Source of the DNA: Naegleria gruberi
Lineage: Eukaryota
DNA length: 64,000 bases
Strand: one strand, 5' to 3'
NCBI GenBank assembly: GCA_000004985.1
Contig: GG738881.1
Made by a program: the position numbers and the translations under genes. The notes beneath the pieces were generated by a model, which saw nothing but the letters and a program-made list of their open reading frames with translations, ran no database searches and had not been told where the DNA came from. Below, one piece after another: positions 1 to 64,000 of this stretch (position 1 is the stretch's first letter; the number at the start of each line of letters is the position of its first letter).

Positions 1-1468
1 GGATCTTCGTTTAACCAGAGTTTTAAAATATGGAATAGCTCTATCATTATTCTCAAAGTATTGATCATATTCAGGTGTATTAGAATAAAATGCAACAAAA
101 TCCAAACAGTATTCTTTGATTTGATTCAAATAGGAATTATTGTTATCAGAATCTCTATTCTGATAATTAGTAATTGTGTAGACAATATTTAACACACTTT
201 TCATATCGATCATGGAAATAATTGATTCCAATAACTCATTTTGAAATTTAGACATTTCATTTGATACTTTATCCAATATAAATAATACAAATAACTTTTG
301 TTTGATAGTTGTAAATGTGATTTCTGGATTGTAAATTAATTTATCTATCAGTAATTGTAATATTTCAGATTCACTATTGTTAAGTGATCGAATAAACTCC
401 TCATTTAGCAATACATTTTCCAAGAATTTAGGTGCAATAATATTAATGATATCTTTAAAAACAATAATGTGACTATTTGGTAATTTGTCATATTCATATT
501 TCTTGAAATGAATTATTTGTAAAATTTGTTCTGGTAAGATCAAGTCTTTGTCAACGATAATATTAGGTTGGCATAACAATAATTTAGCAATTTCAAAATG
601 TTGTTTCTCTACAGTGATTCTTAATGGATTCTAATGGCATTAATTGACTAACTTATAGATATACCTACATCCTTATATTTTTAGAATCAATGATATTATT
701 GACACTTACTTTCTAATATATTATTAAAAACAATATTTTAAACTAAAACTTACTTGCTAATATACTTTCAATATTAATATTCATATTCAATACTTACTTT
801 CTAATTTGTTTTTAGAATTAGACGAAGCTATTACTTACATACTGATATTGTTAAATTTAATAAAATAATCATTACTTACAAGCTAAAAACAATTAATATT
901 AAACTAATTTAATACTTACTTCCTAATAAACTTCAGACTACCAAAAATATTAATGTAATACATACGTACTAATTGTGTTAGCACAATTAAACATTTACTT
1001 ACAACCTATTTAAATTAATAATTGTATAATGATTGAATACGTACATACTATGTATTCAATAGTAAAAACACGATTGATTCGACACTTACTTTCTAGAAAA
1101 TTGTTAATATGCAAATAAATATATAATACTTGCTTCCTTATAATTTACTAGTAAATAATAGAATTGTAATTAATACTCACAGACTTAATTATTTAAATAA
1201 TTATTTAAATAATAATTTAAATACTTACTCCTAAATTGACATCAACATTCGGGACAGTCAACAATAATTTAACGATTTCCAAATGTCCCCTCTCGCAAGC
1301 TACATACAACAAGGTTTTTCCCAACGAAAATACCTTAAATTGGTAAGAATTGAAATAAAAATCATTAATGATCGGAGCCAAATCAAACTTTAACAATTCA
1401 GCAACATTTCCATCCTCCACCACTTGTAAAATTTTGTGTTTGTCAACAACTTCCACACCTCTTCTCAT
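1..1468 (-). CDS. Ankyrin-repeat protein, partial. The gene runs off the window start. The 5' coding exon is 1468..1229 and the large 3' exon is 630..1. They are joined through the intron/microexon array at 631..1228.
   Basis: ORF 1217..1468 holds an ankyrin consensus (LLYVACERGHLEIVKLLLTVPNVDVN). A GTAAGT donor follows ...NVDVNLG directly. The minus-strand frame 630..1 is open with no start and translates NPLRITVEKQHFEIAKLLLCQPNIIVDKD... (next ankyrin repeat), preceded by a CCATTAG acceptor. The frame is continuous across the putative splices. Confidence 0.6.
631..1228 (-). other. Tandem array of 11 short introns (37-84 nt) separated by ten 3-nt in-frame spacers (putative 1-codon microexons).
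   Basis: On the minus strand the pattern (T)TAG-NNN-GTAAGT recurs ten times. The 3-nt spacers lie at plus 710-712, 754-756, 798-800, 839-841, 880-882, 920-922, 1003-1005, 1090-1092, 1135-1137 and 1181-1183. Donors are GTAAGT eight times, GCAAGT once and GTGAGT once. Acceptors are TAG, CAG or AAG. Interior sequences of the units are unrelated AT-rich DNA. Phase 0 is kept throughout, linking ...NLG to NPLRI.... Confidence 0.5.
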
Positions 1469-1880
1469 TTTTTTCTAGAACGTGATTGGATGAAACTCAT
1501 TAATTGTAAGTTGACACGATAGTTAACGTGTTTCATCAGGAGTATTTCCATTAATTGATATTTTGCATTTCATAGAGTGTAAATGGATGATGTGAATTAT
1601 CATTCTCCGAAATATTTTCTTGAATTGTCACTTGTCCAAAATTTACAAAATATTATATTTTAGCAAACAATTGTATGCACCGACAATTATTTCCAAAACA
1701 AATCCTTGCAAGTTGTTTGGAATATCTTCCTCATTCAATGCAACTCCGTCATCAATATCCAATAGTACCTTTCGAATTTGTTCTTTGGACCATAAACATG
1801 CGCATGTTAAGGCAGCAAAGGCTCTTATTGTTCTTTTGTATTTATTTTTACAATGAAATATCTGCAACAAGAAAAAAAGT

Positions 1881-1954
1881 TGGGGTCAGTGAGGATCGAA
1901 CTCACGACCTTAGGATTATGAGACCTACGCGCTACCGACTGCGCCATGACCCCT
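1881..1954 (-). tRNA. tRNA-Met (anticodon CAT), elongator type.
   Basis: Reverse complement reads GGGGTCATGGCGCAGTCGGTAGCGCGTAGGTCTCATAATCCTAAGGTCGTGAGTTCGATCCTCACTGACCCCA. The cloverleaf has a 7-bp acceptor stem and a GTTCGATCC T-arm, and the anticodon loop is CTCATAA. The D- and T-arms are near-identical to metazoan elongator Met. An oligo-T run (A-run at plus 1872-1879) sits just 3' on the minus strand. Confidence 0.9.
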
Positions 1955-2049
1955 ACACAGTAATAATAAGAAATTACAAGTCCTTGATGAATAGGTTTCC
2001 TAAAGTGAAAGCGTAGGTTATTGAATAATTTTATGATTCTAAATTCCTC

Positions 2050-2619
2050 TGGATCAAAGATTGTAATGAGAAGTGGATGGAAAGGAATTTATCTCTTGCT
2101 GTGGTTAAGGAAACCCGCTCAAAACGACCATTCTCTCCGTGCATGTGTATGGCCATTTTTCTGAAATAACAAAATTAAATACTTAATCGAAATGAAATTC
2201 ATATGTTTTTAAGGATTTACATGTAGGAAATGAAATCCTTACAATGCATATGATTTTTTACACTGATAAATGCAATAATACTGTTGGTCAATTGATAGTT
2301 GATAAGGAAGTTTGCGTCGCGGACTTGGGAAGCCAAATTATTACATCCGCACGAAAGTGTTCAAAAACCAATAAAAAGCTTGTTGACCTTATTGGATGAG
2401 ATGGTTGCTGAGGAAAACAAAGTGGCTGCACGATTTACCATGACTGGCACACATGACGGTGTGTTTATGGGAATTCCAGCAAGTGGAAAGAATATTTGTG
2501 TGAAAGCCTCAAATTTTTACACGTTTAAGGATGGTCAGATTGTTGAAGAGTATGGCCAACCTGATTTATTGTCGTTGTTGCAACAAATTGGTGCCATCCC
2601 ACCAGCCAAATTGATTTAG
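2050..2619 (+). CDS. SnoaL-like / ester-cyclase-family protein (bacterial-type). The terminal exon 2299..2619 is secure. An upstream exon around 2050..2148 is tentative, and a possible frameshift makes this a possible pseudogene.
   Basis: ORF 2299..2619 encodes ...DEMVAEENKVAARFTMTGTHDGVFMGIPASGKNICVKASNFYTFKDGQIVEEYGQPDLLSLLQQIGAIP, the conserved C-terminal half of the ester-cyclase fold. It is preceded by a ...CAATTGATAG acceptor. The upstream frame at 2050-2148 (CNEKWMERNLSLAVVKETRSKRPFSP) resembles the N-terminal half but has no clean ATG or junction. Confidence 0.45.
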
Positions 2620-3529
2620 AATGGCTCTTGTAACTAGTGATAATCTACAACCTGTATAAATAGTGGAAAATTCTCGACTTTCAAATGGGTTGAAGAAACG
2701 AACCAGCTCTACCACAAGCTTGTTTGCATAAAATATTTGAATAGAAAGGTGAGAAACCTCAAATGTGGCATTTGTTTTCTCTCAACTAGTGGAATTGTTG
2801 AAATGTCACTTATCTAAATAAAACTTGAAAAAAATTATCGACCTACTTTTTGACATGCCACTTTGCAACAATTACAAGTCATTTATTTCGGCGTTTGGCT
2901 CGGAAAATCAATTATTTTAATAATTAAAAACATGTGAATTTTTATAAAATTGAAACCTTGCTGAACCAAACACTGAAATAAGTGAGTAAATCATCACGTC
3001 CTATTTTGAATTATTTTTACTATTAAATATTTATTTTATAAAATCCCGAATTAAATCTTTCATCGAATGATTTTTCATACAATCCATCAATGGGTGTTTT
3101 ACTGCCTAATTTCAAAATATCACAATGTGAATACTTATACTTTTTGAATAAATAATTTTTTTATTAGGTCACCCATGTGACAATTTTACTTCGGCAAAAA
3201 TAATATTCTAAAAGATTCGGTGTAAAAATACATGTTCAAGCCAAATTTAATGTTTAAAAATAAAAAAGCAAAAAGAGAAAAAATTAACAAGATTTTTCTC
3301 CCTCTCAGAGGCTTTTTATAAAACTCGCATACAACAACACAAAAACAACAAGAAGAATATATAATATTATATTCAACCAACACACTTACACTTTGAACAA
3401 ATATTTGAGAGTGTTTGTTACGTACCCACAACAATAATAACAGCAAAAATAGTCTAGTGGTAATAGCTAAGAATTTAAACCGTTAGAAAACACAATTGTA
3501 TCATATACTCTGCAAAGAAGGACAACAAA

Positions 3530-22585: not shown

Positions 22586-24514
22586 ATGAAACAATTGAAT
22601 GCTAGAGGATTATTTGAAAATTCTAAAGTGTCGGAAAGTAATCATCAGTGTGTTTTAGATTTATCCCTCTCTTCAAAATTACTTTCCACTAAAATTCAAG
22701 ACATTCCACAGAAAGATAAATATGAAATAATTATAAAACCACTATTCGAATATTGTTTCGGAACGAGTGATGATTCTGTTTGGGAGAAACTAAATGATGA
22801 TGAAGAGGAATACGAAAGTGATGATAATGACCACGATGAAGAGGAAGATGAAAGAATTGATGAAAATAATGACCAAAATGACACTAGTCAAATAATATAT
22901 TTAAAGATTGATTGGAACAGAGATCGAACTTTTATTCATGGGCAAATATTCAATTTGGTTGTTGGTAAATTTCTCATTTTGGCCAATAAGCTTGGATTGT
23001 GGAAGAATAGATCATTTGTTTTGACTACGACCGAATATAGAGATATTAAAACACTCAAGTATGTGGACGATAATTTCAGGAATGATAGGGAAATTGTAAT
23101 GGCAGCTGTCAACGAAAATGGACGTACCCTTAAATATGCATCGAGTGAATTGAGAAATGATTTTGAAATTGTAAAAACAGCCGCTCGGAATAATCGTCGA
23201 GCACTGTGGTATGCATCGAAACAATTGAGTAGTAATAAGGAAATTGTAATGACAGCTGTTAAAAGTAATGGACTATCTCTTGAATATATGCCTACACAAA
23301 TTAGAAATGACAGAAAAATTGTTAAAATTGCTATACAAGAGAATGGTAATGCACTTGGATATGCTTCAAAAGAATTGAAGAGTGATAAGGAAATTGCCCT
23401 ACTTGCTATAGAATCAAGCCCAAAAGCATATGAATGTGCATCTAATCAATTGACGAATGACCAAGATCTAATTCTTAAAGTGTTGTCCAAATCGTGCGAC
23501 TATATTTTCGGTATTGACCAATCAATTAAGCTATTTAAAAACGATAGAAAATTTATACTTGCTATTGCAAAGTTGGATGGCCTTAAAGCCCTTCGTAATG
23601 CTTCACTGGAATTGAGAGATAATAGAGAGATAGTAATTGAAGCAGTTCAACAAAATCCAAATGCTTTGGTCTATGCATCTAGTGAATTGAGGAATGACAA
23701 GGAGATTGTGAAAATGGCAGTAATGGAAAATGGAAGCTGTTTGACTTTTGCATCAAATGAATTGAAAGATGATAAGGAAATTGCGGAATTGGCATTCAAA
23801 TCTTCTGAAATTGCTGTTCGATATTTTTCTGAAAGATTGAGAAATGATATTGAATTCCTGAGCGGATTTGGAAAGAGAGGTTATTTATTAAAGATTTTAC
23901 CAGATCATTTCATGAATGACAGAGAAATAGTATTGGAAGCAATCAAACTGGACCCACAAATTATTTTGACTCTTCCCAATGAATTGAAAAGAGACAGAGA
24001 ATTTATATTGCAAGCTGTAACAAGATGTGGTATGGCACTTCGTGGAGTGAGTTCAGAATTTCAAAAAGATAGAGAATTAGTTTTGGCTGCAGTAACACAA
24101 AATGGAAATTCAATCAATTTTGCCTCACAAGAAGTTTGGAATGATAAGGAAATTGTTCTGAAAGCTGCCGAAACATGCAATCAAGAACTATTACTTAAAT
24201 TACCAAGTTTCGACAAACAAATTTACCTGCAACTCATCAAAAAACGTGGAGGTGAATGCCTGAAATATTTTCCAAGAAAATTTCAAATAGATAGAGAAAT
24301 TCTAATGGAAGCCTTAAAAACCCATCCTAAAACTGCATTCCTCAATGCTTCTGGCACGTTAAAGGTAATGGATCGAGTATTTGCTATGCGAGTTGTGAAA
24401 AGAGATGGCATGCTTTTAGGTGAAATGTGTTCAAAACACAAAAGTGATAGAGAAATAATTTCCTGTGCAGTCAAACAAAATATCAAAGCACTGAAATATG
24501 CATCCATTGATTGA
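22586..24514 (+). CDS. DUF4116-repeat protein (642 aa) with an acidic N-terminal region.
   Basis: More than 12 tandem units of about 36 aa, of the form ..N(D/E)REIV(L/M)(A/T)AV..NG.AL.YAS.ELR... The ATG at 22586 lies in an A-rich context. It is transcribed divergently from the Fic gene, 110 bp away. Confidence 0.8.
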   Translation: MKQLNARGLFENSKVSESNHQCVLDLSLSSKLLSTKIQDIPQKDKYEIIIKPLFEYCFGTSDDSVWEKLNDDEEEYESDDNDHDEEEDERIDENNDQNDTSQIIYLKIDWNRDRTFIHGQIFNLVVGKFLILANKLGLWKNRSFVLTTTEYRDIKTLKYVDDNFRNDREIVMAAVNENGRTLKYASSELRNDFEIVKTAARNNRRALWYASKQLSSNKEIVMTAVKSNGLSLEYMPTQIRNDRKIVKIAIQENGNALGYASKELKSDKEIALLAIESSPKAYECASNQLTNDQDLILKVLSKSCDYIFGIDQSIKLFKNDRKFILAIAKLDGLKALRNASLELRDNREIVIEAVQQNPNALVYASSELRNDKEIVKMAVMENGSCLTFASNELKDDKEIAELAFKSSEIAVRYFSERLRNDIEFLSGFGKRGYLLKILPDHFMNDREIVLEAIKLDPQIILTLPNELKRDREFILQAVTRCGMALRGVSSEFQKDRELVLAAVTQNGNSINFASQEVWNDKEIVLKAAETCNQELLLKLPSFDKQIYLQLIKKRGGECLKYFPRKFQIDREILMEALKTHPKTAFLNASGTLKVMDRVFAMRVVKRDGMLLGEMCSKHKSDREIISCAVKQNIKALKYASID

Positions 24515-32282: not shown

Positions 32283-34811
32283 TCATTTCAAATAGCAAGC
32301 ATCAAGATAGGTTGTACAAATTCGTTTCTGAAACAATTCTTCACTGAATTCACAGCAAAATCCACTTTTCATGGCAATTTCTTCTTTCATTTCAACTAGT
32401 GGCGAAAGTAATTGTTTTAGAAGGGCACATATTCCACATTCGTTTCGTTTCAGTGCTTCCAGAACCATTTCCAGATCCATAGTGATGCTAGCTTGATGAG
32501 TGATAAAGAATGAACATGAGAGTCCATTTCGTATAGCTTCTAAAATACAGAGATTGTCCTGGATTAGGTCATTTGAGGCGAAATAAATCGAATCTGCCTT
32601 ATTTCTAATGGCTGCAAGAACGACATCCCTATCATTTCGCATTTCAACTGATAGAAACTTTAACAAGTCACCTCTCAAACTAACAACTATCAAGGCAATT
32701 TCTTTACAATTTCTCACCCTTTCGGATGCTAATTCAATGACAGTTGGATCGGTCATGACAGCCAATTTCATTATTTCCAAATCATCTTTCAATATGGAGC
32801 ATGTATGCTTCAAAGGAATGATAGATTGCTTAACAGCTTCCAAAATAAATTCCCTGTCATTCTTGAATTTGCGTTTCAAATCGTCTGGAATGGAGAAGAA
32901 ATTGGTTTTCAAACCCGCCAATATAATTTCCTTGTCTGATCTTAAATTTTCATTAAGGAAATGGAATGACAACACTTCTGGATCGTTTTTGACTGATTCT
33001 AATACAATTTGTCTGTCTTGTTGTAATTTTGGAGAGGCAAATTCAAGGGAGCATCCACGATTTCTGACAGCTGTCAAGACTATTTCTCTATCTTGAACCA
33101 AATCTTCACACACAAATTCCAGTGCATCTCCCTCACTTTCCACAGCTTTCAAAACAACCTCTCTATCATTCCAAAAATCAGGGAAATATTCCAAATAATA
33201 TCCATTATACGAAACTGTTTCCAATGCAAAATCTCTATCCTCAATCAACATGGTTTCAATTTCACTGAAAATCTCAATCGGACATTCCTTAATTGCTTCC
33301 AACATGAACGATCGACTATTCCTCAAAAATAATGAAGCATCTTCCAGACATTGAGGATACAACCTTAATATTTTTAACATGAAAATTCTGTCATTCTTTT
33401 GTTTCATTGTAATGAGATGAAAGAATTGATAATTCGATTCGACTATCTGATATACGAAATCATTGTCTGTTTCCCAGGATTTGTTCCAAATTCTGGAAAT
33501 GAGTTGTTTGGAATTGAATGGTGAACTGTCAATTAGACAACTGATAATTTTGAAAATTTGTAAAACTAAATCTTGGTGTTGTTTCACATTGGTTTCGTCT
33601 AATAAATTATTGATGCATGAAAATAAAGTTGCTGAAAGCCCAGAGTTTGCTAATTTCGCTCCTTCTGCATGGGAAACAACCTTCAAAGTATGTGAAATTA
33701 TTTCTGTGAGGATTGACTTGTCATTTTTCAAATCTTTCGAAAGCCATTCCAAAATTTCGAATAACTTATTAAGCAATGATATTGCCGATTGTTCATTTGT
33801 AATTCTATTACATTCCAATCCGTTTTGTCTAATAGATTCAATAACAATCTCAATATCATTCACACATTCGTCCAATCTAAGAACAATCGAATAAGCTCCT
33901 CGTTTCACACATGTCAATGCCATCTTTCTCCATGAATAATTTTCATTACAATTATTGGCTATCTGCTTCATAGCTAACAAGATAATTTCTCTATCCTTAC
34001 TAAATTGAGAATCAATTACATATTCCATTACTCTTCCATTTTCTCTCACTGCATCCATTACAAAATTTCTATCACGACATAATTTCTCCTTTACCAATTT
34101 AAAAACTGTTGCATTATTCGAAAGGGCTTGAAGGGCAACTTGTCGATCGTATTGATAGTGATTTGAGAGAAGAGGTAAAATCAGTCCATTGTTTCGAACA
34201 CATTCGAATATAAACTCTCTATTCTTCATCAATTCCTTATTTACAAAACTAATAGCCTTTTCATTATTCTTGATAGATTCCAAAACAACATTTCGATCAT
34301 CATTGAAATTCTTCAACTCCTTCAATGCTAATCCATCCTTTCGTACAATTTGCAAGACGAAACTCTTCTTATGAATTTGATAAAGATTTCTCAAGGTTGC
34401 AACTGTTTGCCACGAATCAGGTTTACAAATTCTGAAAACTTTCTCCACAATTTCAAAATCATTTTCCAATAATTGTGGATGAATATTCTCCCACAATCGA
34501 TCTGCATCATTATTCGAATGTTTGTTCCGATCATGGAAATCATCAAGGAATTGCATGATATATTGTTTGTCCTTCGAGTATTCGATCGGAATGAAGTTTA
34601 GAATAGTAAATCGATTGATCAACCATTTGTATTTTCCCTTGCTTTGATTTTCGAATCGTTTCTTCAAATTCGAATACAAATAATGATCATTGTGATGATG
34701 CTGACTGAGAAAATCATAAAGGATGAGAACTACCAAATCATGATTGCATTGGTGCATTGTATTTGAACTTGGGAGTGATGCAAATACACTTTCTAATATT
34801 TTATTCGACAT
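32283..34811 (-). CDS. DUF4116-repeat protein (842 aa), paralogue of the gene at 22586..24514.
   Basis: Tandem repeats such as ..DREVVLKAVESEGDALEFVCEDLVQDREIVLTAVRNRGCSLEFASPKLQQDRQIVLESVKN.... Single exon. Confidence 0.8.
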   Translation of the reverse strand: MSNKILESVFASLPSSNTMHQCNHDLVVLILYDFLSQHHHNDHYLYSNLKKRFENQSKGKYKWLINRFTILNFIPIEYSKDKQYIMQFLDDFHDRNKHSNNDADRLWENIHPQLLENDFEIVEKVFRICKPDSWQTVATLRNLYQIHKKSFVLQIVRKDGLALKELKNFNDDRNVVLESIKNNEKAISFVNKELMKNREFIFECVRNNGLILPLLSNHYQYDRQVALQALSNNATVFKLVKEKLCRDRNFVMDAVRENGRVMEYVIDSQFSKDREIILLAMKQIANNCNENYSWRKMALTCVKRGAYSIVLRLDECVNDIEIVIESIRQNGLECNRITNEQSAISLLNKLFEILEWLSKDLKNDKSILTEIISHTLKVVSHAEGAKLANSGLSATLFSCINNLLDETNVKQHQDLVLQIFKIISCLIDSSPFNSKQLISRIWNKSWETDNDFVYQIVESNYQFFHLITMKQKNDRIFMLKILRLYPQCLEDASLFLRNSRSFMLEAIKECPIEIFSEIETMLIEDRDFALETVSYNGYYLEYFPDFWNDREVVLKAVESEGDALEFVCEDLVQDREIVLTAVRNRGCSLEFASPKLQQDRQIVLESVKNDPEVLSFHFLNENLRSDKEIILAGLKTNFFSIPDDLKRKFKNDREFILEAVKQSIIPLKHTCSILKDDLEIMKLAVMTDPTVIELASERVRNCKEIALIVVSLRGDLLKFLSVEMRNDRDVVLAAIRNKADSIYFASNDLIQDNLCILEAIRNGLSCSFFITHQASITMDLEMVLEALKRNECGICALLKQLLSPLVEMKEEIAMKSGFCCEFSEELFQKRICTTYLDACYLK

Positions 34812-42352: not shown

Positions 42353-42439
42353 CCGATGATAGCTCAGCTGGTAGAGCATGGGACTGTAGCAAGAAAAACT
42401 GTCATCCTGTGGTCGGCGGTTCGATTCCGTCTCATCGGA
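42353..42439 (+). tRNA. tRNA-Tyr (anticodon GTA) with a 14-nt intron 3' of the anticodon.
   Basis: CCGATGATAGCTCAGCTGGTAGAGCATGGGACTGTAG[caagaaaaactgtc]ATCCTGTGGTCGGCGGTTCGATTCCGTCTCATCGGA. The exons are near-identical to the conserved eukaryotic tRNA-Tyr. A TCTTTTT terminator follows. It lies 80 bp downstream of the SDR stop codon. Confidence 0.9.
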
Positions 42440-61361: not shown

Positions 61362-62700
61362 ATGCCCAATAATCCTTCCCCTACTACTTCTCAGCAACAT
61401 GTTCTTTCCCTTCTCCAGCAACAACAACAGCAACAACAGCAATTTTTACAAATTATCAATTTGGCGGCAAACAACAATCCAAGTCCCAACCAGCTACAAA
61501 TGAATCCACAACAACATGTTTCCCTCCAAAATCTCAATCAATCCCCAACCACTCCAAACAGCAGTAGTACTAGTGGCAGTCAAACACCTCTGAGTACTGG
61601 TAATGGGAGTCCTGCTAATGGCTTGTCTCCTTCCCTAATTTTCAATACTTCTTCTTCGATAAGTAATAATAATAATACAAATGGTGCTGGTGGTGGATCT
61701 GGAAGTGGAAATAGCATGCAAACAACACCTTGGTTTTTGAATCAAAACAATAATATTAATAATAATAATAGTGGAAATAATAATGGAAATAATAATAATC
61801 AGCAAAGATCAAATTCATTGGGAAGTTCGAGTCATGTGAATGAATCATCATCTTTTGGAAATAAGAAATTAATAATGAATAATAATAATAATTTATTATT
61901 GAATCATGGTGGTCAATTGATACATCAAGGAAATTCATCACCTTCTACTCCTCTCAATAACAAGTCAATTCTGCAATCAATGATTACTCCACCAAGCACT
62001 TCATCCTCACCATCTACCAATAATAACACGACTCCACCATCAGCTAATTTCATTCCTCCTGGTTATGTTCCTCTGAATGCTGTTTCGAATCAACAAATTG
62101 TTGGTGCTCAACCACAACAACAACAACGAAACATTTCAATGCAAAATCAGCAAGTGGGAAATCCATTAGTTGAAAAATTGAGACAATTGTTACAATTAAT
62201 GAGGATTAGAGGAAGATCCAAATCATCCAATGTTCAAAACAGTTTCACACCAAATGATAACTAATCAAATTATGCAAATTGTACAACAAATAGGAGGAGA
62301 TGGAAGTGCTTTTGGTGTTGACATGTTTCTGAATTCTCTAAAATCTCAACAACAACAAATTAATGTAAATAATAATAATAATAGAAATAATAGTGTGATG
62401 CAATCTGTTCATCCTCAAACAGTTGGCCACCTTTCACAGCAAGCCCAACAGATGCAACACAATATATACAAACAAACACAACAACAAGCATTGATATCCC
62501 AGCAATTTAGTCCAATGATTTCTACGACCACTTCGATATCTTCATCCTCAGTTGGATCGAATAATACTCAACAAGTGGACACTATGATGTTGGATAATGA
62601 TATGGATTTTGAAATATTCAAATCTACAATATTAGGAAATGACAATACAGTATTTCCATTGAAATTGGATTTTAGTGATCTAGTTGACTTTAAAAAGTAA
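61362..62700 (+). CDS. Gln/Asn/Ser-rich low-complexity protein. The two listed ORFs (61362..62264 and 62230..62700) probably belong to one gene with a +1 frame change near 62230-62264.
   Basis: Both ORFs are strongly Q/N-rich with similar composition and abut with a 35-nt overlap. No GT-AG intron of plausible size resolves the shift, so it may be an indel, a sequencing error or a pseudogene. The second part has a non-repetitive block HQMITNQIMQIVQQIGGDGSAFGVDMFLNSL and a C-terminal ...MLDNDMDFEIFKSTILGNDNTVFPLKLDFSDLVDF. Confidence 0.45.
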
Positions 62701-62837
62701 AATGTACCATATTAATTGTTCAACTTTTTTGATGGGATTCATTACCTTACACATTAATAATTGATTTGTTTCCATTCCTCATCTAAATTCAGTAGAAAGT
62801 TCATAAAACTTTGAACTTTTTTACAAATCAAAAAAAA

Positions 62838-63995
62838 ATGAAAAACGACAAATCCAAGGAAAATGTTGATAAAAGTTCTTCGGAGGAAATGGTAATACAA
62901 AATTCTAAAGATATGACTACATTGATCGATTCTTGTCGGAAAATTCAAGAACAAAAGCAATATCATTCCATTACACAAATTGAATTTATTAATCTTGCTA
63001 CTAACAAATTAATACATCCATTCAATAATTACAATTTAAAAGGATTTAATATGAGACAAATTAATTTAGCAGATTTTCTAGTGAGAGATACAATTATTTC
63101 AGATAGTGATTTTACTGAAAGTAAATTGGAAAATATTCAATTCATTCTTTGTAAATTTAATAATAGTAATTTTAATTATGAGAATTTTGAAAATGTTACA
63201 TTTACAGATTGTATTTATGATGATAATTGTTCATTTTCAGGTGAAAAACAATTAAAAGGAATAGCTCTAAATCAAAATAGTATTAAATTTGAAATTTTGG
63301 ATCAAAAAAATAATTGGATTATTAATTATTTAGATCTCAATAATAATGTTGGATATAAACTTGCTAAATTTATTGGTAAATTGAATAATTTAATAACACT
63401 AAATATCACTTCTTGTAATATTGGAGAAGAAGGTTCAAAGGAAATTGCTAAATTAAGTAATTTAACAGAACTTAAAATTGATAATAACAATATTGGATCT
63501 GAAGGTGTAAAATATATTGCTCAATTGAGTAATTTAACATCACTTAATGTATATAATAATAACATTGGAACAGAAGGTGCAAAAGAAATTGGTAAATTAC
63601 TAAATTTAAAAACTCTTAATATTGATAATAATTATATTGGAGATGAAGGAGCACAAGAAATTTCCAAATTAATCAATTTAACATCATTAAATATGTATAA
63701 AAATAGTATCGGATATGAGGGTGCAAAAGCAATTTCTAAATTGGGTAATTTAAGAGCTCTTACTATATATAATAATTATATTGGAGAAGAAGGTGCAAAA
63801 GAAATTAGTAAATTGACTAACTTAACCTCGCTCAATATCAGTAATAATAATATTGGAGATGAAGGCGCAAAAGAAATTACTAAATTAAGTAATTTAACAG
63901 GACTTAAAATTGATAATAATAATATTGGATATGAAGCTGCTAAAGAAATCAGGCAATTGTTGAAGAATTTAAAATATTTGGGAAACATCAATTAA
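62838..63995 (+). CDS. Leucine-rich-repeat protein of the ribonuclease-inhibitor (RNI)-like class, with about 10 units of about 24 aa.
   Basis: Repeats of LTSLN(I/V)xNNNIG(D/S/T)EGAKEI(S/A)KLxNL. The N-terminal region of about 180 aa has no clear domain. ATG at 62838 lies after an A-run. Confidence 0.75.
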   Translation: MKNDKSKENVDKSSSEEMVIQNSKDMTTLIDSCRKIQEQKQYHSITQIEFINLATNKLIHPFNNYNLKGFNMRQINLADFLVRDTIISDSDFTESKLENIQFILCKFNNSNFNYENFENVTFTDCIYDDNCSFSGEKQLKGIALNQNSIKFEILDQKNNWIINYLDLNNNVGYKLAKFIGKLNNLITLNITSCNIGEEGSKEIAKLSNLTELKIDNNNIGSEGVKYIAQLSNLTSLNVYNNNIGTEGAKEIGKLLNLKTLNIDNNYIGDEGAQEISKLINLTSLNMYKNSIGYEGAKAISKLGNLRALTIYNNYIGEEGAKEISKLTNLTSLNISNNNIGDEGAKEITKLSNLTGLKIDNNNIGYEAAKEIRQLLKNLKYLGNIN

Positions 63996-64000
63996 CTAGG

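What the first reader, a model, noticed from the sequence alone, without database searches (positions are those of the whole stretch)
631..1228. Ten consecutive in-frame 3-nt putative microexons separated by eleven canonical mini-introns inside an ankyrin-repeat gene
On the minus strand the ankyrin exon ends ...NVDVNLG|GTAAGT at about 1229. The next long exon starts CCATTAG|AATCCATTAAGA (NPLRITVEKQH...) at 630 in the same frame.

In the 598 nt between them there are ten copies of the arrangement [T/C/A]AG - NNN - GT(A/G)AGT (one GCAAGT). Each 3-nt spacer is flanked upstream by a polypyrimidine/AT-rich tract ending in AG and downstream by a strong 5' splice site. The spacers are AAA, CAA, AAA, TAT, CTT, GAA, GTT, AAA, GAA and TCT. 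Every intervening segment (37-84 nt) falls in the size range of the verified introns elsewhere in this window.

The segment interiors are unrelated to each other, so this is not a recent tandem duplication. Only the splice motifs and the 3-nt spacing are conserved, which is what selection on splicing, rather than on repeat sequence, would give.

If all are used, the mRNA gains 10 codons (S-E-K-V-E-L-Y-K-Q-K in transcript order) in a loop between two ankyrin repeats. A run of ten 1-codon microexons would be exceptional.

Alternatives are a single 598-nt intron carrying a fossil array of splice-site pairs, or a set of competing or recursive splice intermediates.
Basis: seen in the sequence. Interest (0 to 1): 0.85.

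Follow-up and report, generated by a model that had tools for sequence, protein, structure and literature searches.

The report
Chain of single-codon exons in Naegleria
Inside one ankyrin-repeat gene of the amoeba Naegleria gruberi, 598 bases are laid out as 14 minimal introns separated by 13 exons of exactly one codon each, an extreme gene structure that looks functional but still lacks RNA proof.

Summary
The window is Naegleria gruberi nuclear DNA. The gene is NAEGRDRAFT_69871 (XP_002674929.1).

- **Motif count:** AG-NNN-GYRAGT occurs 12 times on both strands of the 64 kb window. Ten of those lie in 631-1228 (minus strand).
- **Extra units:** The three long segments each hide one more unit with a weaker donor (GTACGT, GTATGT, GTAGGT). 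Such donors are used by ordinary introns here.
- **Full array:** It has 14 mini-introns of 34-45 nt and 13 one-codon spacers (SEKYVYELYKQKD, no stop).
- **Retention:** Every mini-intron, if retained, gives a stop or a frameshift.
- **Donors:** They carry A at +7 in 11 of 14 units, against 0 of 11 ordinary introns. This extends U1 pairing.
- **Interiors:** They are no more alike than shuffles.
- **Public model:** It already uses eight of the triplets, but it wrongly splices out the second ankyrin repeat, so it looks ab initio.
- **Analogue:** Metagenome contig L007 has four one-codon exons (K-W-N-S) in the same ankyrin loop. They restore the canonical 33-residue repeat.

No transcript data were reachable and no orthologue exists. 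The best reading is a real chain of single-codon exons, born by serial duplication of a codon-plus-intron module (about 0.58). The main rival is one long intron with relic sites.

The parts
1229..1468 (-). Exon 1 of NAEGRDRAFT_69871, 80 codons (MRRG...NVDVNLG). Contains ankyrin repeat 1 (TLLYVACERGHLEIVKLLLTVPNVDVNLG).
1184..1228 (-). Mini-intron 1, 45 nt, GTAAGTAT...TTAAG. In-frame stop if retained.
1181..1183 (-). One-codon exon 1, TCT (S). Used in the public model.
1137..1180 (-). Mini-intron 2, 44 nt, GTGAGTAT...ATAAG.
1134..1136 (-). One-codon exon 2, GAA (E). Followed by a GC donor. Not in the public model.
1093..1133 (-). Mini-intron 3, 41 nt, GCAAGTAT...TCTAG (GC-AG).
1090..1092 (-). 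One-codon exon 3, AAA (K).
1048..1089 (-). Mini-intron 4, 42 nt, GTAAGTGT...CATAG.
1045..1047 (-). One-codon exon 4, TAT (Y). New here. Weaker donor GTACGTAT follows.
1006..1044 (-). Mini-intron 5, 39 nt, GTACGTAT...AATAG.
1003..1005 (-). One-codon exon 5, GTT (V).
969..1002 (-). Mini-intron 6, 34 nt, GTAAGTAA...GCTAACACAATTAG. Shortest unit, below the 38-nt minimum seen elsewhere in the window.
966..968 (-). One-codon exon 6, TAC (Y). New here. Weaker donor GTATGTAT follows.
923..965 (-). Mini-intron 7, 43 nt, GTATGTAT...ATTAG.
920..922 (-). One-codon exon 7, GAA (E). Not in the public model.
883..919 (-). Mini-intron 8, 37 nt, GTAAGTAT...TTTAG.
880..882 (-). One-codon exon 8, CTT (L).
842..879 (-). 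Mini-intron 9, 38 nt, GTAAGTAA...ATCAG.
839..841 (-). One-codon exon 9, TAT (Y).
801..838 (-). Mini-intron 10, 38 nt, GTAAGTAA...ATTAG.
798..800 (-). One-codon exon 10, AAA (K).
757..797 (-). Mini-intron 11, 41 nt, GTAAGTAT...ATTAG.
754..756 (-). One-codon exon 11, CAA (Q).
713..753 (-). Mini-intron 12, 41 nt, GTAAGTTT...ATTAG.
710..712 (-). One-codon exon 12, AAA (K).
672..709 (-). Mini-intron 13, 38 nt, GTAAGTGT...ATAAG.
669..671 (-). One-codon exon 13, GAT (D). New here. Donor GTAGGTAT follows.
631..668 (-). Mini-intron 14, 38 nt, GTAGGTAT...CATTAG.
1..630 (-). Start of the last exon. It contains ankyrin repeat 2 (NPLRITVEKQHFEIAKLLL...) and then runs into a kinase-like C-terminus beyond the window edge. 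The open frame is bounded upstream by the TAG of the acceptor.

Best explanation
The 598 nt between the two ankyrin-coding exons of NAEGRDRAFT_69871 are a chain of 14 minimal spliceosomal introns (34-45 nt). They are separated by 13 exons of exactly one codon; at least the 10 triplets with strong donors are used.

**Mechanism (inferred).** The organism splices very short introns by recognition across the intron. Each donor is bound by U1, helped by extended intron-side pairing (GTAAGTAT). Each mini-intron is removed on its own, probably not simultaneously with its direct neighbours because the sites are only 3 nt apart. The triplets stay in the mRNA. They add up to 13 residues (SEKYVYELYKQKD) to the hairpin loop between ankyrin repeats 1 and 2 of an ankyrin/kinase-like protein.

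**Origin (inferred).** The array grew by serial tandem duplication of a [one codon + mini-intron] module at a pre-existing phase-0 intron in front of the xPLx start of the repeat. Each duplication adds only one loop residue, so it is nearly neutral. Afterwards every unit must stay spliceable, because retaining any one of them destroys the reading frame. That requirement preserves the splice signals and the 3-nt spacing while the interiors drift.

**Shown:** the anatomy, its non-random nature, the donor peculiarity, the consequences of retention, and the analogue. **Inferred:** actual splicing, inclusion of the triplets, and the origin.
For: - **Concentration of the motif.** Ten of the 12 AG-NNN-GYRAGT motifs in the window lie here, and the enrichment is exclusive to the 3-nt spacer.
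- **Regular array.** Including the three weaker donors gives 14 units of 34-45 nt with no stop among the 13 triplets. GTATGT and GTAGGT donors are used by ordinary introns of the window, which are 38-127 nt long.
- **Conserved signals, diverged interiors.** Splice signals are kept in all 14 units, while the interiors are no more alike than shuffles and vary in length.
- **Donor signature.** Donors have A at +7 in 11 of 14 units, against 0 of 11 ordinary introns (Fisher p = 1e-4). All five non-GTAAGT donors read ...GTAT at +5 to +8. From general knowledge of the U1 5' end, this maximises intron-side pairing where the exon side cannot contribute.
- **Retention is never silent.** A retained unit gives an in-frame stop in 11 of 14 cases and a frameshift in 3 of 14.
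- **The gene looks maintained.** Exon 2 can only be expressed by splicing, and the downstream reading frame is long and intact in 27% GC DNA.
- **Analogue L007.** An ankyrin gene on a 17% GC contig has four one-codon exons AAA TGG AAT AGT, separated by introns of 40, 35, 38, 44 and 36 nt, in the same loop, ending immediately before TPLH.
  - With K-W-N-S the repeat is the canonical 33 residues.
  - Pfam Ank_5 rises from 73.3 to 92.5 bits.
  - The spliced protein aligns without a gap to an uninterrupted homologue: AKNKWNSTPLHFAS against ARDKWKETPLHFAS.
  - Its intron interiors are still similar to each other (0 of 500 shuffles reach the observed score), which fits growth by duplication.
- **Loop length is within family.** Homologues and paralogues have loops of comparable length at this position: 15 residues in P0002, 18 in N. 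gruberi P0006, counted between the DVN motif and the next xPL motif.
Against: - No RNA evidence could be reached. The protein database holds no transcript-derived copy of this gene.
- Joining 1229 directly to 630 gives a 29-residue repeat period that also occurs in homologue P0002.
- Pfam Ank_2 scores do not favour inclusion: 39.3 bits for the direct join, 38.8 with 10 codons, 37.0 with 13.
- One unit (34 nt) is shorter than any clear intron in the window.
- Donor and acceptor sit 3 nt apart, which must hinder simultaneous recognition.
- The gene is an orphan. It has no orthologue, and a 95-98% identical Naegleria lacks it at the syntenic position. Long-term selection on it is therefore uncertain.
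- The public model that uses eight of the triplets wrongly removes ankyrin repeat 2. It is probably ab initio and does not count as evidence.
Confidence: 0.58

Rival explanations
1. The region is one 598-nt intron, removed in a single step from 1228 to 631. The internal acceptor-donor pairs are relics of an old duplication array, or decoys, and contribute nothing to the mRNA.
For: - The direct join gives ...DVNLG|NPLRITVEKQH. That is the 29-residue spacing seen repeatedly in homologue P0002 (for example DVNRDEPLALAAGNGH).
- Ank_2 scores highest for the direct join (39.3 bits).
- Nothing transcript-derived is available.
- Three-nucleotide exons are sterically awkward.
Against: - All 13 internal AG + donor pairs, and the exact 3-nt spacing, survive although the interiors are randomised and differ in length.
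- The donors carry a special +7/+8 signature that strengthens U1 pairing.
- The clear introns of the window are 38-127 nt, so the nearest acceptor, 45 nt away, should win under recognition across the intron.
- In the analogue L007 the one-codon exons are needed for a canonical repeat.
Confidence: 0.2
2. The sites are used, but variably. Because every spacer is one codon, any subset keeps the frame. The array would then yield a population of loop variants (up to 2^13) at a binding-surface loop of the ankyrin domain, either as splicing noise or as regulated diversity.
For: - All exons are symmetric and there is no stop among the triplets.
- Donor strengths differ: GTAAGT, GTGAGT, GCAAGT, GTACGT, GTATGT and GTAGGT. 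This should give unequal usage.
- Skipping a triplet merges two mini-introns into a 75-90 nt intron, which is well within the normal range.
- Loop lengths at this position vary widely among paralogues.
Against: - There is no RNA evidence.
- Exon skipping is generally rare outside animals according to PMC6142364.
- The weaker donors all carry compensating +7/+8 AT, which suggests selection for use rather than for skipping.
Confidence: 0.15
3. The region is not a splicing feature at all. It would be a DNA-level repeat or protein-binding array, or junk in a dying strain-specific gene, that merely resembles splice sites.
For: - The gene lies in a strain-variable, low-GC (27%) end of the window.
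- It has no orthologue.
Against: - The motif is exactly the species' splice consensus and in the gene's orientation. The array begins at the donor of exon 1 and ends at the acceptor of exon 2.
- The flanking reading frames are intact.
- Rfam finds nothing in the region.
- Scans of viral and prokaryotic collections with the pattern returned almost only tandem repeats and simple periodic sequence. Nothing like a diverged AT-rich array appeared.
Confidence: 0.05

Closest known systems
Ultra-short microexons of animals and plants
   Same: These are exons of one codon or less, flanked by ordinary GT-AG introns and included in the mRNA. Examples: the 3-nt exons in RPS24, CYTH1 and MAP4K5, and plant exons of 1-15 nt (PMC12207440, PMC6314551, PMC8632122, PMC8831610). 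Adjacent pairs are known and verified by RNA-seq, for example 5 + 12 bp (PMC11096116).
   Different: Known cases are single exons or pairs, usually between long introns, and are often conserved over long times. Here 13 one-codon exons stand in a row, separated by near-minimal introns, in an orphan gene.
Micro-exon genes (MEGs) of Schistosoma
   Same: They carry many consecutive exons whose lengths are multiples of three (3-81 bp), so any combination keeps the frame. They are proposed to create protein variants (bioRxiv 10.1101/2023.06.21.545858; PMC4015677).
   Different: MEG exons are mostly 6-36 bp, their introns reach kilobases, and the products are small secreted proteins encoded mostly by micro-exons. 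Here only one loop of an intracellular-type ankyrin/kinase-like protein is affected. All the small exons are 3 nt and the introns about 40 nt.
Recursive splicing ratchet points (Drosophila)
   Same: They juxtapose an acceptor and a strong donor inside a long intervening region, allowing stepwise removal (PMC8605326).
   Different: Ratchet points have a zero-length exon (AG|GTAAGT) and leave nothing in the mRNA. Here the spacer is always 3 nt, and no zero-spacer site exists in the array, so each step would leave a codon.
Intron gain by tandem genomic duplication
   Same: A duplicated segment carrying splice signals creates a new intron (PMC3265369, PMC4974935, PMC2891723). This is the proposed way the array grew.
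   Different: Published cases create one intron from a duplicated AGGT-containing exon segment. Here the duplicated unit would be a whole mini-intron plus one codon, repeated up to 13 times.
Tiny introns whose retention is always visible to translation (Paramecium rule; Jaillon et al. 2008, recalled from memory, not checked here)
   Same: The introns are very short. Those whose length is a multiple of three carry in-frame stops, so mis-splicing is detected. In the array, 3 of 3 such units have stops.
   Different: That rule describes genome-wide statistics, not an array.

Membership tests
U2-type GT-AG spliceosomal introns of N. gruberi | GT (rarely GC) at the 5' end, AG at the 3' end, and a donor matching the species consensus GTRNGT | tested here: met
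   All 14 units meet it. Thirteen are GT and one is GC. Donors are GTAAGT x9, GTGAGT, GCAAGT, GTACGT, GTATGT and GTAGGT. Ordinary introns use GTAAGT, GTATGT, GTAGGT and GTGAGT.
U2-type GT-AG spliceosomal introns of N. gruberi | Length within the range of the species' verified introns | tested here: inconclusive
   Thirteen of 14 units (37-45 nt) sit at the low end of the 38-127 nt seen in the window. One unit is 34 nt. Only 11 reference introns from one window were available.
U2-type GT-AG spliceosomal introns of N. gruberi | Removal demonstrated in RNA | not testable with these tools
   No transcript data were reachable. RNA-seq PRJEB23822 exists.
Microexon (an exon of 30 nt or less that is included in mRNA) | A short coding segment bounded by an acceptor and a donor, in frame, without a stop | tested here: met
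   There are 13 triplets, all exactly 3 nt, with no stop. The frame is kept between exon 1 and exon 2.
Microexon (an exon of 30 nt or less that is included in mRNA) | Inclusion in the mature transcript or protein | not testable with these tools
   Support is indirect only. In the analogue L007 the four triplets restore the canonical 33-residue repeat.
Schistosoma-type micro-exon gene | Most of the coding sequence lies in symmetric micro-exons, introns are long, and the product is a small secreted protein | tested here: not met
   Only 39 of more than 1500 coding nt are in micro-exons. The introns are about 40 nt. The product is an ankyrin plus kinase-like protein of 506 or more residues, and its N-terminus (MRRGVEVVDKHK...) does not look like a signal peptide by eye; no predictor was run.
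Recursive splice site (ratchet point) | Acceptor directly abutting a donor (AG|GTAAGT, zero-length exon) | tested here: not met
   No zero-spacer AG-GYRAGT site lies inside the array. All spacers are 3 nt.
Tandem repeat / minisatellite | Head-to-tail units of recognisable sequence similarity | tested here: not met
   Tandem Repeats Finder reports only a short 12-nt repeat at 1186-1227. No pair of unit interiors exceeds shuffles. Only the splice motifs and the +7 to +9 ATT are shared.
Ankyrin repeat protein | Pfam Ank-family match above threshold, spanning the junction | tested here: met
   Ank_2 scores 39.3 bits (cut-off 27.3) over residues 45-101 of the directly joined protein. Ank scores 32.6 bits.

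The most novel reading that the evidence does not exclude
The array is a splicing-based diversity or dosage device. It is a cassette of 13 independently skippable one-codon exons at the tip of an ankyrin binding loop. It would give thousands of in-frame loop variants, or act as a splicing-efficiency gate, since 14 introns must all be removed.

Such 'codon + mini-intron' modules would be a recurrent, self-propagating way of growing protein loops in AT-rich protists. L007 shows a second, younger instance in the same ankyrin loop.
Probability: 0.15. Interest if true: 0.9.

Novelty: new variant of a known kind. Interest (0 to 1): 0.68.

Why it matters
If the triplets are spliced in, this would be the densest run of minimal exons and introns that I could find described. 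It would show that a spliceosome can handle acceptor and donor sites only 3 nt apart, 13 times in a row.

It would also give a concrete, stepwise route for growing both introns and protein loops, by duplication of a codon-plus-intron module. A young example (L007) and an old one (Naegleria) sit at the same structural position of the ankyrin repeat.

It also matters for annotation. Gene predictors and RNA-seq aligners normally cannot place 3-nt exons, and the current public model of this gene is wrong around the array.

Tried and rejected
- **Metagenome scan.** The scan used a pattern of three donors and two triplets. Most hits were (GTAA)n microsatellites and perfect tandem repeats, because AG-TAA-GTAAGT is part of (GTAA)n. 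Only L007 was a true analogue.
- **Viral and prokaryotic scans.** The same pattern, with the third triplet base required not to be A, was run on viral contigs and prokaryotic genomes. Almost everything returned was tandem repeats or simple periodic sequence. One two-unit match (L208) looked like chance.
- **L007 in viral contigs.** A search for L007's exon found nothing.
- **Other N. gruberi loci.** Attempts to fetch P0001, P0006, P0008 and a window ORF by exact protein failed, because they are not on record. The paralogue with a 16-residue loop could therefore not be inspected.
- **Orthologue in the related metagenome Naegleria.** The neighbouring gene was found (L261), but synteny breaks at window position ~1789 and the ankyrin gene is not there.
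- **Unit similarity.** The mean pairwise score is above mononucleotide shuffles (z about 5), but no pair stands out. I treat this as composition and low-complexity effects, not as homology.
- **Pfam scoring of the Naegleria variants.** It does not discriminate between 0, 10 and 13 inserted codons.
- **Rfam.** No RNA family matches in the array.
- **Literature.** No paper was found on Naegleria microexons or on runs of single-codon exons.
- **Structure prediction.** Not attempted. It would not tell whether the triplets are spliced in.
Full report
**What the window is**

The window is nuclear DNA of Naegleria gruberi. Exon 1 and the last exon of the gene in question are identical to 'predicted protein [Naegleria gruberi]' P0001. 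Its identifiers are XP_002674929.1, EFC42185.1, NAEGRDRAFT_69871 and UniProt D2VLR3, on a 379,849-bp scaffold. Six other open reading frames of the window are exact matches to N. gruberi proteins of the same scaffold. The window is gene-dense, about 33% GC, and carries tRNA genes and short GT-AG introns.

**Check of the observation**

- On the minus strand, exon 1 (1468-1229, MRRG...NVDVNLG) ends in front of GTAAGT at 1228. The next long open frame starts right after a TAG acceptor at 630 (NPLRITVEKQH...).
- AG-NNN-GYRAGT occurs 12 times on both strands of the 64 kb window, 10 of them in these 598 nt.
- For spacer lengths of 0-12 nt the whole window holds 2-9 matches per length. Only the 3-nt spacer is enriched, and no zero-spacer site lies in the array.
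- A pattern of three donors and two triplets matches four times here and never in 100 dinucleotide shuffles.

**Refinement of the array**

The three long segments (84, 80 and 79 nt) each contain one further unit with a weaker donor...CATAG TAT GTACGT...TTAG TAC GTATGT and ...TAAG GAT GTAGGT. GTATGT and GTAGGT are donors of ordinary introns in this window.

- The full array is 14 mini-introns of 45, 44, 41, 42, 39, 34, 43, 37, 38, 38, 41, 41, 38 and 38 nt.
- The 13 triplets are TCT GAA AAA TAT GTT TAC GAA CTT TAT AAA CAA AAA GAT, encoding SEKYVYELYKQKD, with no stop.
- The clear introns elsewhere in the window are 38-127 nt. The units therefore sit at the lower limit, and one (34 nt) lies below it.

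**Signs that the sites are functional**

- **Conserved signals, drifted interiors.** The interiors of the units are no more alike than shuffled sequences, no pair stands out, and Tandem Repeats Finder sees no roughly 44-nt period. Yet all 14 donors, all 14 acceptors and all 13 three-nucleotide spacings are intact.
- **A special donor signature.**
  - Position +7 is A in 11 of 14 units, but in 0 of 11 ordinary introns of the window, where it is T in 9 of 11 (Fisher p = 1e-4).
  - Eight units read GTNNGTAT, including all five whose core is not GTAAGT.
  - From general knowledge, the 5' end of U1 snRNA pairs with CAG|GUAAGUAU, so A at +7 and U at +8 extend pairing on the intron side.
  - That is what a donor would need when its exon is only three unconstrained bases. 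I could not check the N. gruberi U1 sequence.
  - The shared GTAAGTATT can equally be read as a trace of common descent of the units.
- **Retention is never silent.** Eleven units contain an in-frame stop, and the other three have lengths that shift the frame.
- **The gene depends on splicing.** The last exon has no start codon of its own near its beginning. Pfam Ank_2 covers residues 45-101 of the directly joined protein, spanning the junction.

**The public gene model**

P0001 reads ...NVDVNLG-SKVLYKQK-KYEYDKL.... It already uses eight of the one-codon exons. It skips both GAA triplets and the three with weak donors. It then jumps to an acceptor inside the last exon and removes NPLRITVEKQHFEIAKLLL...HFK, which is the second ankyrin repeat according to Pfam. 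The model is therefore most likely an ab initio path through the strongest splice sites. I do not count it as expression evidence. No transcript-derived protein of this gene is in the searched protein collection.

**An independent analogue**

The metagenome scan mostly returned (GTAA)n microsatellites and perfect tandem repeats. One contig was a true analogue: L007 (Ga0207864_1037532, 1425 nt, 17% GC).

- **Structure.** It carries an ankyrin gene in which the exon [29 protein letters not shown] is followed by GTAAGT...TAG AAA GTAAGT...TAG TGG GTAAGT...TAG AAT GTAAGT...TAG AGT GTAAGT...TAG. Then comes the next exon, [11 protein letters not shown].... The introns are 40, 35, 38, 44 and 36 nt.
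- **The triplets are coding.**
  - With the four triplets (K-W-N-S) the repeat has the canonical 33 residues.
  - Pfam Ank_5 rises from 73.3 to 92.5 bits, and the other Ank models rise slightly.
  - The spliced protein aligns without a gap to an uninterrupted homologue, AKNKWNSTPLHFAS against ARDKWKETPLHFAS.
- **Same loop.** The array occupies the loop between the DVN motif and the next xPLx. Its last acceptor is at the identical position to the Naegleria array, immediately before T/N-P-L. Its first donor is one codon further from DVN than in Naegleria.
- **A younger array.** Four of its five donors are also GTAAGTAT. Its intron interiors are still similar to each other (0 of 500 shuffles reach the observed score).

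**Protein context in Naegleria**

- Joining 1229 directly to 630 gives DVN-LG-NPL. That is a 29-residue period, which homologue P0002 shows several times (DVNRDEPL, DVNKNTPL).
- P0002 also has one 15-residue loop at this position (DVN-MGSEVFGSMERDRFH-TPL).
- The N. gruberi paralogues have 5 residues (P0008, DVN-LGRKF-PPLY) and 18 residues (P0006, DVN-KGFTYHFISIKLGQEEME-SPLH).
- A loop of 2 + 13 = 15 residues is therefore within the family range, but so is a loop of 2.
- Pfam scores do not choose between them: 39.3, 38.8 and 37.0 bits for 0, 10 and 13 inserted codons.

**Most likely mechanism and origin**

I conclude that the region is a real chain of mini-introns and single-codon exons (confidence about 0.58). 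The argument is indirect. Splice signals kept against a randomised background imply use. Any use of an internal acceptor together with the following donor leaves the codon in the mRNA.

The most economical origin is repeated tandem duplication of a [codon + mini-intron] unit, at an ancestral phase-0 intron in front of the repeat's xPLx start. Each step adds one residue to a tolerant loop and creates one more intron that must thereafter be kept spliceable. L007 fits as a young array and Naegleria as an old one.

One caveat applies. In L007 the triplets give exactly the canonical loop, with K-W shared with an intronless homologue. That would also fit insertion of intron copies between existing codons, and I cannot decide between these two routes.

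**Rivals**

- **One 598-nt intron with relic sites (about 0.2).** It is favoured by the in-family direct join and by the absence of RNA data. It is disfavoured by the conservation pattern, the donor signature and the short-intron habit of the genome.
- **Variable use of the triplets (about 0.15).** Any subset stays in frame. This is the most interesting reading that the evidence does not exclude.
- **A non-splicing repeat or a dead gene (about 0.05).** This fits poorly with the orientation, the boundaries and the intact reading frames.

**Strain comparison**

- A Naegleria 95-98% identical in DNA is present in ENA metagenome ERZ929261 (run ERR1078381).
- Its contig L261 is collinear with window 1789-2764, which holds tRNA-Met and an ester-cyclase gene. 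To the left of position ~1789 the two sequences are unrelated.
- No orthologue of the ankyrin gene appears in the protein collection.
- The gene therefore lies in a strain-variable, low-GC (27%) segment. This prevented a test of conservation and weakens any claim of long-term selection.

**Comparison with what is known**

- Single 3-nt exons and adjacent pairs of microexons are documented: PMC12207440, PMC8632122, PMC6314551, PMC8831610 and PMC11096116.
- Schistosome micro-exon genes have many symmetric exons of 3-81 bp, but with long introns and secreted products (10.1101/2023.06.21.545858).
- Recursive splice sites have zero-length exons (PMC8605326).
- Intron gain by tandem duplication is documented for single introns (PMC3265369, PMC4974935).
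- Four literature searches found nothing on runs of single-codon exons or on Naegleria microexons.

I therefore rate this as a new variant of a known kind. The anatomy is well supported and the function is unproven.

Noticed in passing
window 1-1468 (-), versus P0001 / XP_002674929.1: The public gene model NAEGRDRAFT_69871 uses eight 3-nt exons. It then splices out 43 codons (NPLRITVEKQH...IIHFK), which Pfam recognises as the second ankyrin repeat. The model is very likely wrong around the array.
   Followed up: yes
window ~1-1789, versus L261 1-672: Synteny with a 95-98% identical Naegleria from ENA metagenome ERZ929261 breaks at about window 1789. The ankyrin/kinase-like gene and its upstream region have no counterpart there. 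This segment is also lower in GC (27% against about 33%), as is the other window end (62001-64000), which encodes a leucine-rich-repeat protein.
   Followed up: partly
window 2244-2619 (+), versus L261 1235-1681: This is an ester cyclase (SnoaL) gene 70-76% identical to bacterial ester cyclases, a candidate horizontal transfer. In the reference window it lacks about 220 nt, including the start, that are present in the metagenome strain's intact 140-148 aa gene. It therefore looks truncated in NEG-M.
   Followed up: partly
window 42353-42439 (+): Rfam finds a fourth tRNA (87 nt, 54.8 bits) that ARAGORN did not report. It possibly contains an intron.
   Followed up: no
window 1881-1953 (-): A tRNA-Met (CAT) gene lies about 410 nt upstream of the ankyrin gene's start codon. 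It is conserved in the metagenome strain. A second tRNA-Met is at 45536-45607.
   Followed up: no
window 22586-24514 (+) and 32283-34811 (-): Two large proteins are made almost entirely of DUF4116 repeats (12-13 copies each, E = 1e-109 to 1e-132).
   Followed up: no
L028, L029, L044 and many other loci: Long imperfect (GTAA)n / (AGTA)n microsatellites are abundant among the JGI metagenome contigs hit by the scan. They mimic AG-TAA-GTAAGT arrays, so any genome-wide scan for this motif must mask them.
   Followed up: yes
L007 1021-1425: The two ankyrin exons of L007 are 82/87 nt identical. The intron after the second exon starts like the first intron of the array (GTAAGTATATT.ATTTAATAAT). The whole [exon + array] block is therefore itself tandemly duplicated, and a second array probably follows beyond the contig end.
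   Followed up: partly
N. gruberi paralogue P0006 (NAEGRDRAFT_73154): At the same ankyrin loop this model has a 16-residue insert (FTYHFISIKLGQEEME) between DVNKG and SPLH. It could hide a similar array. Its DNA could not be fetched.
   Followed up: no
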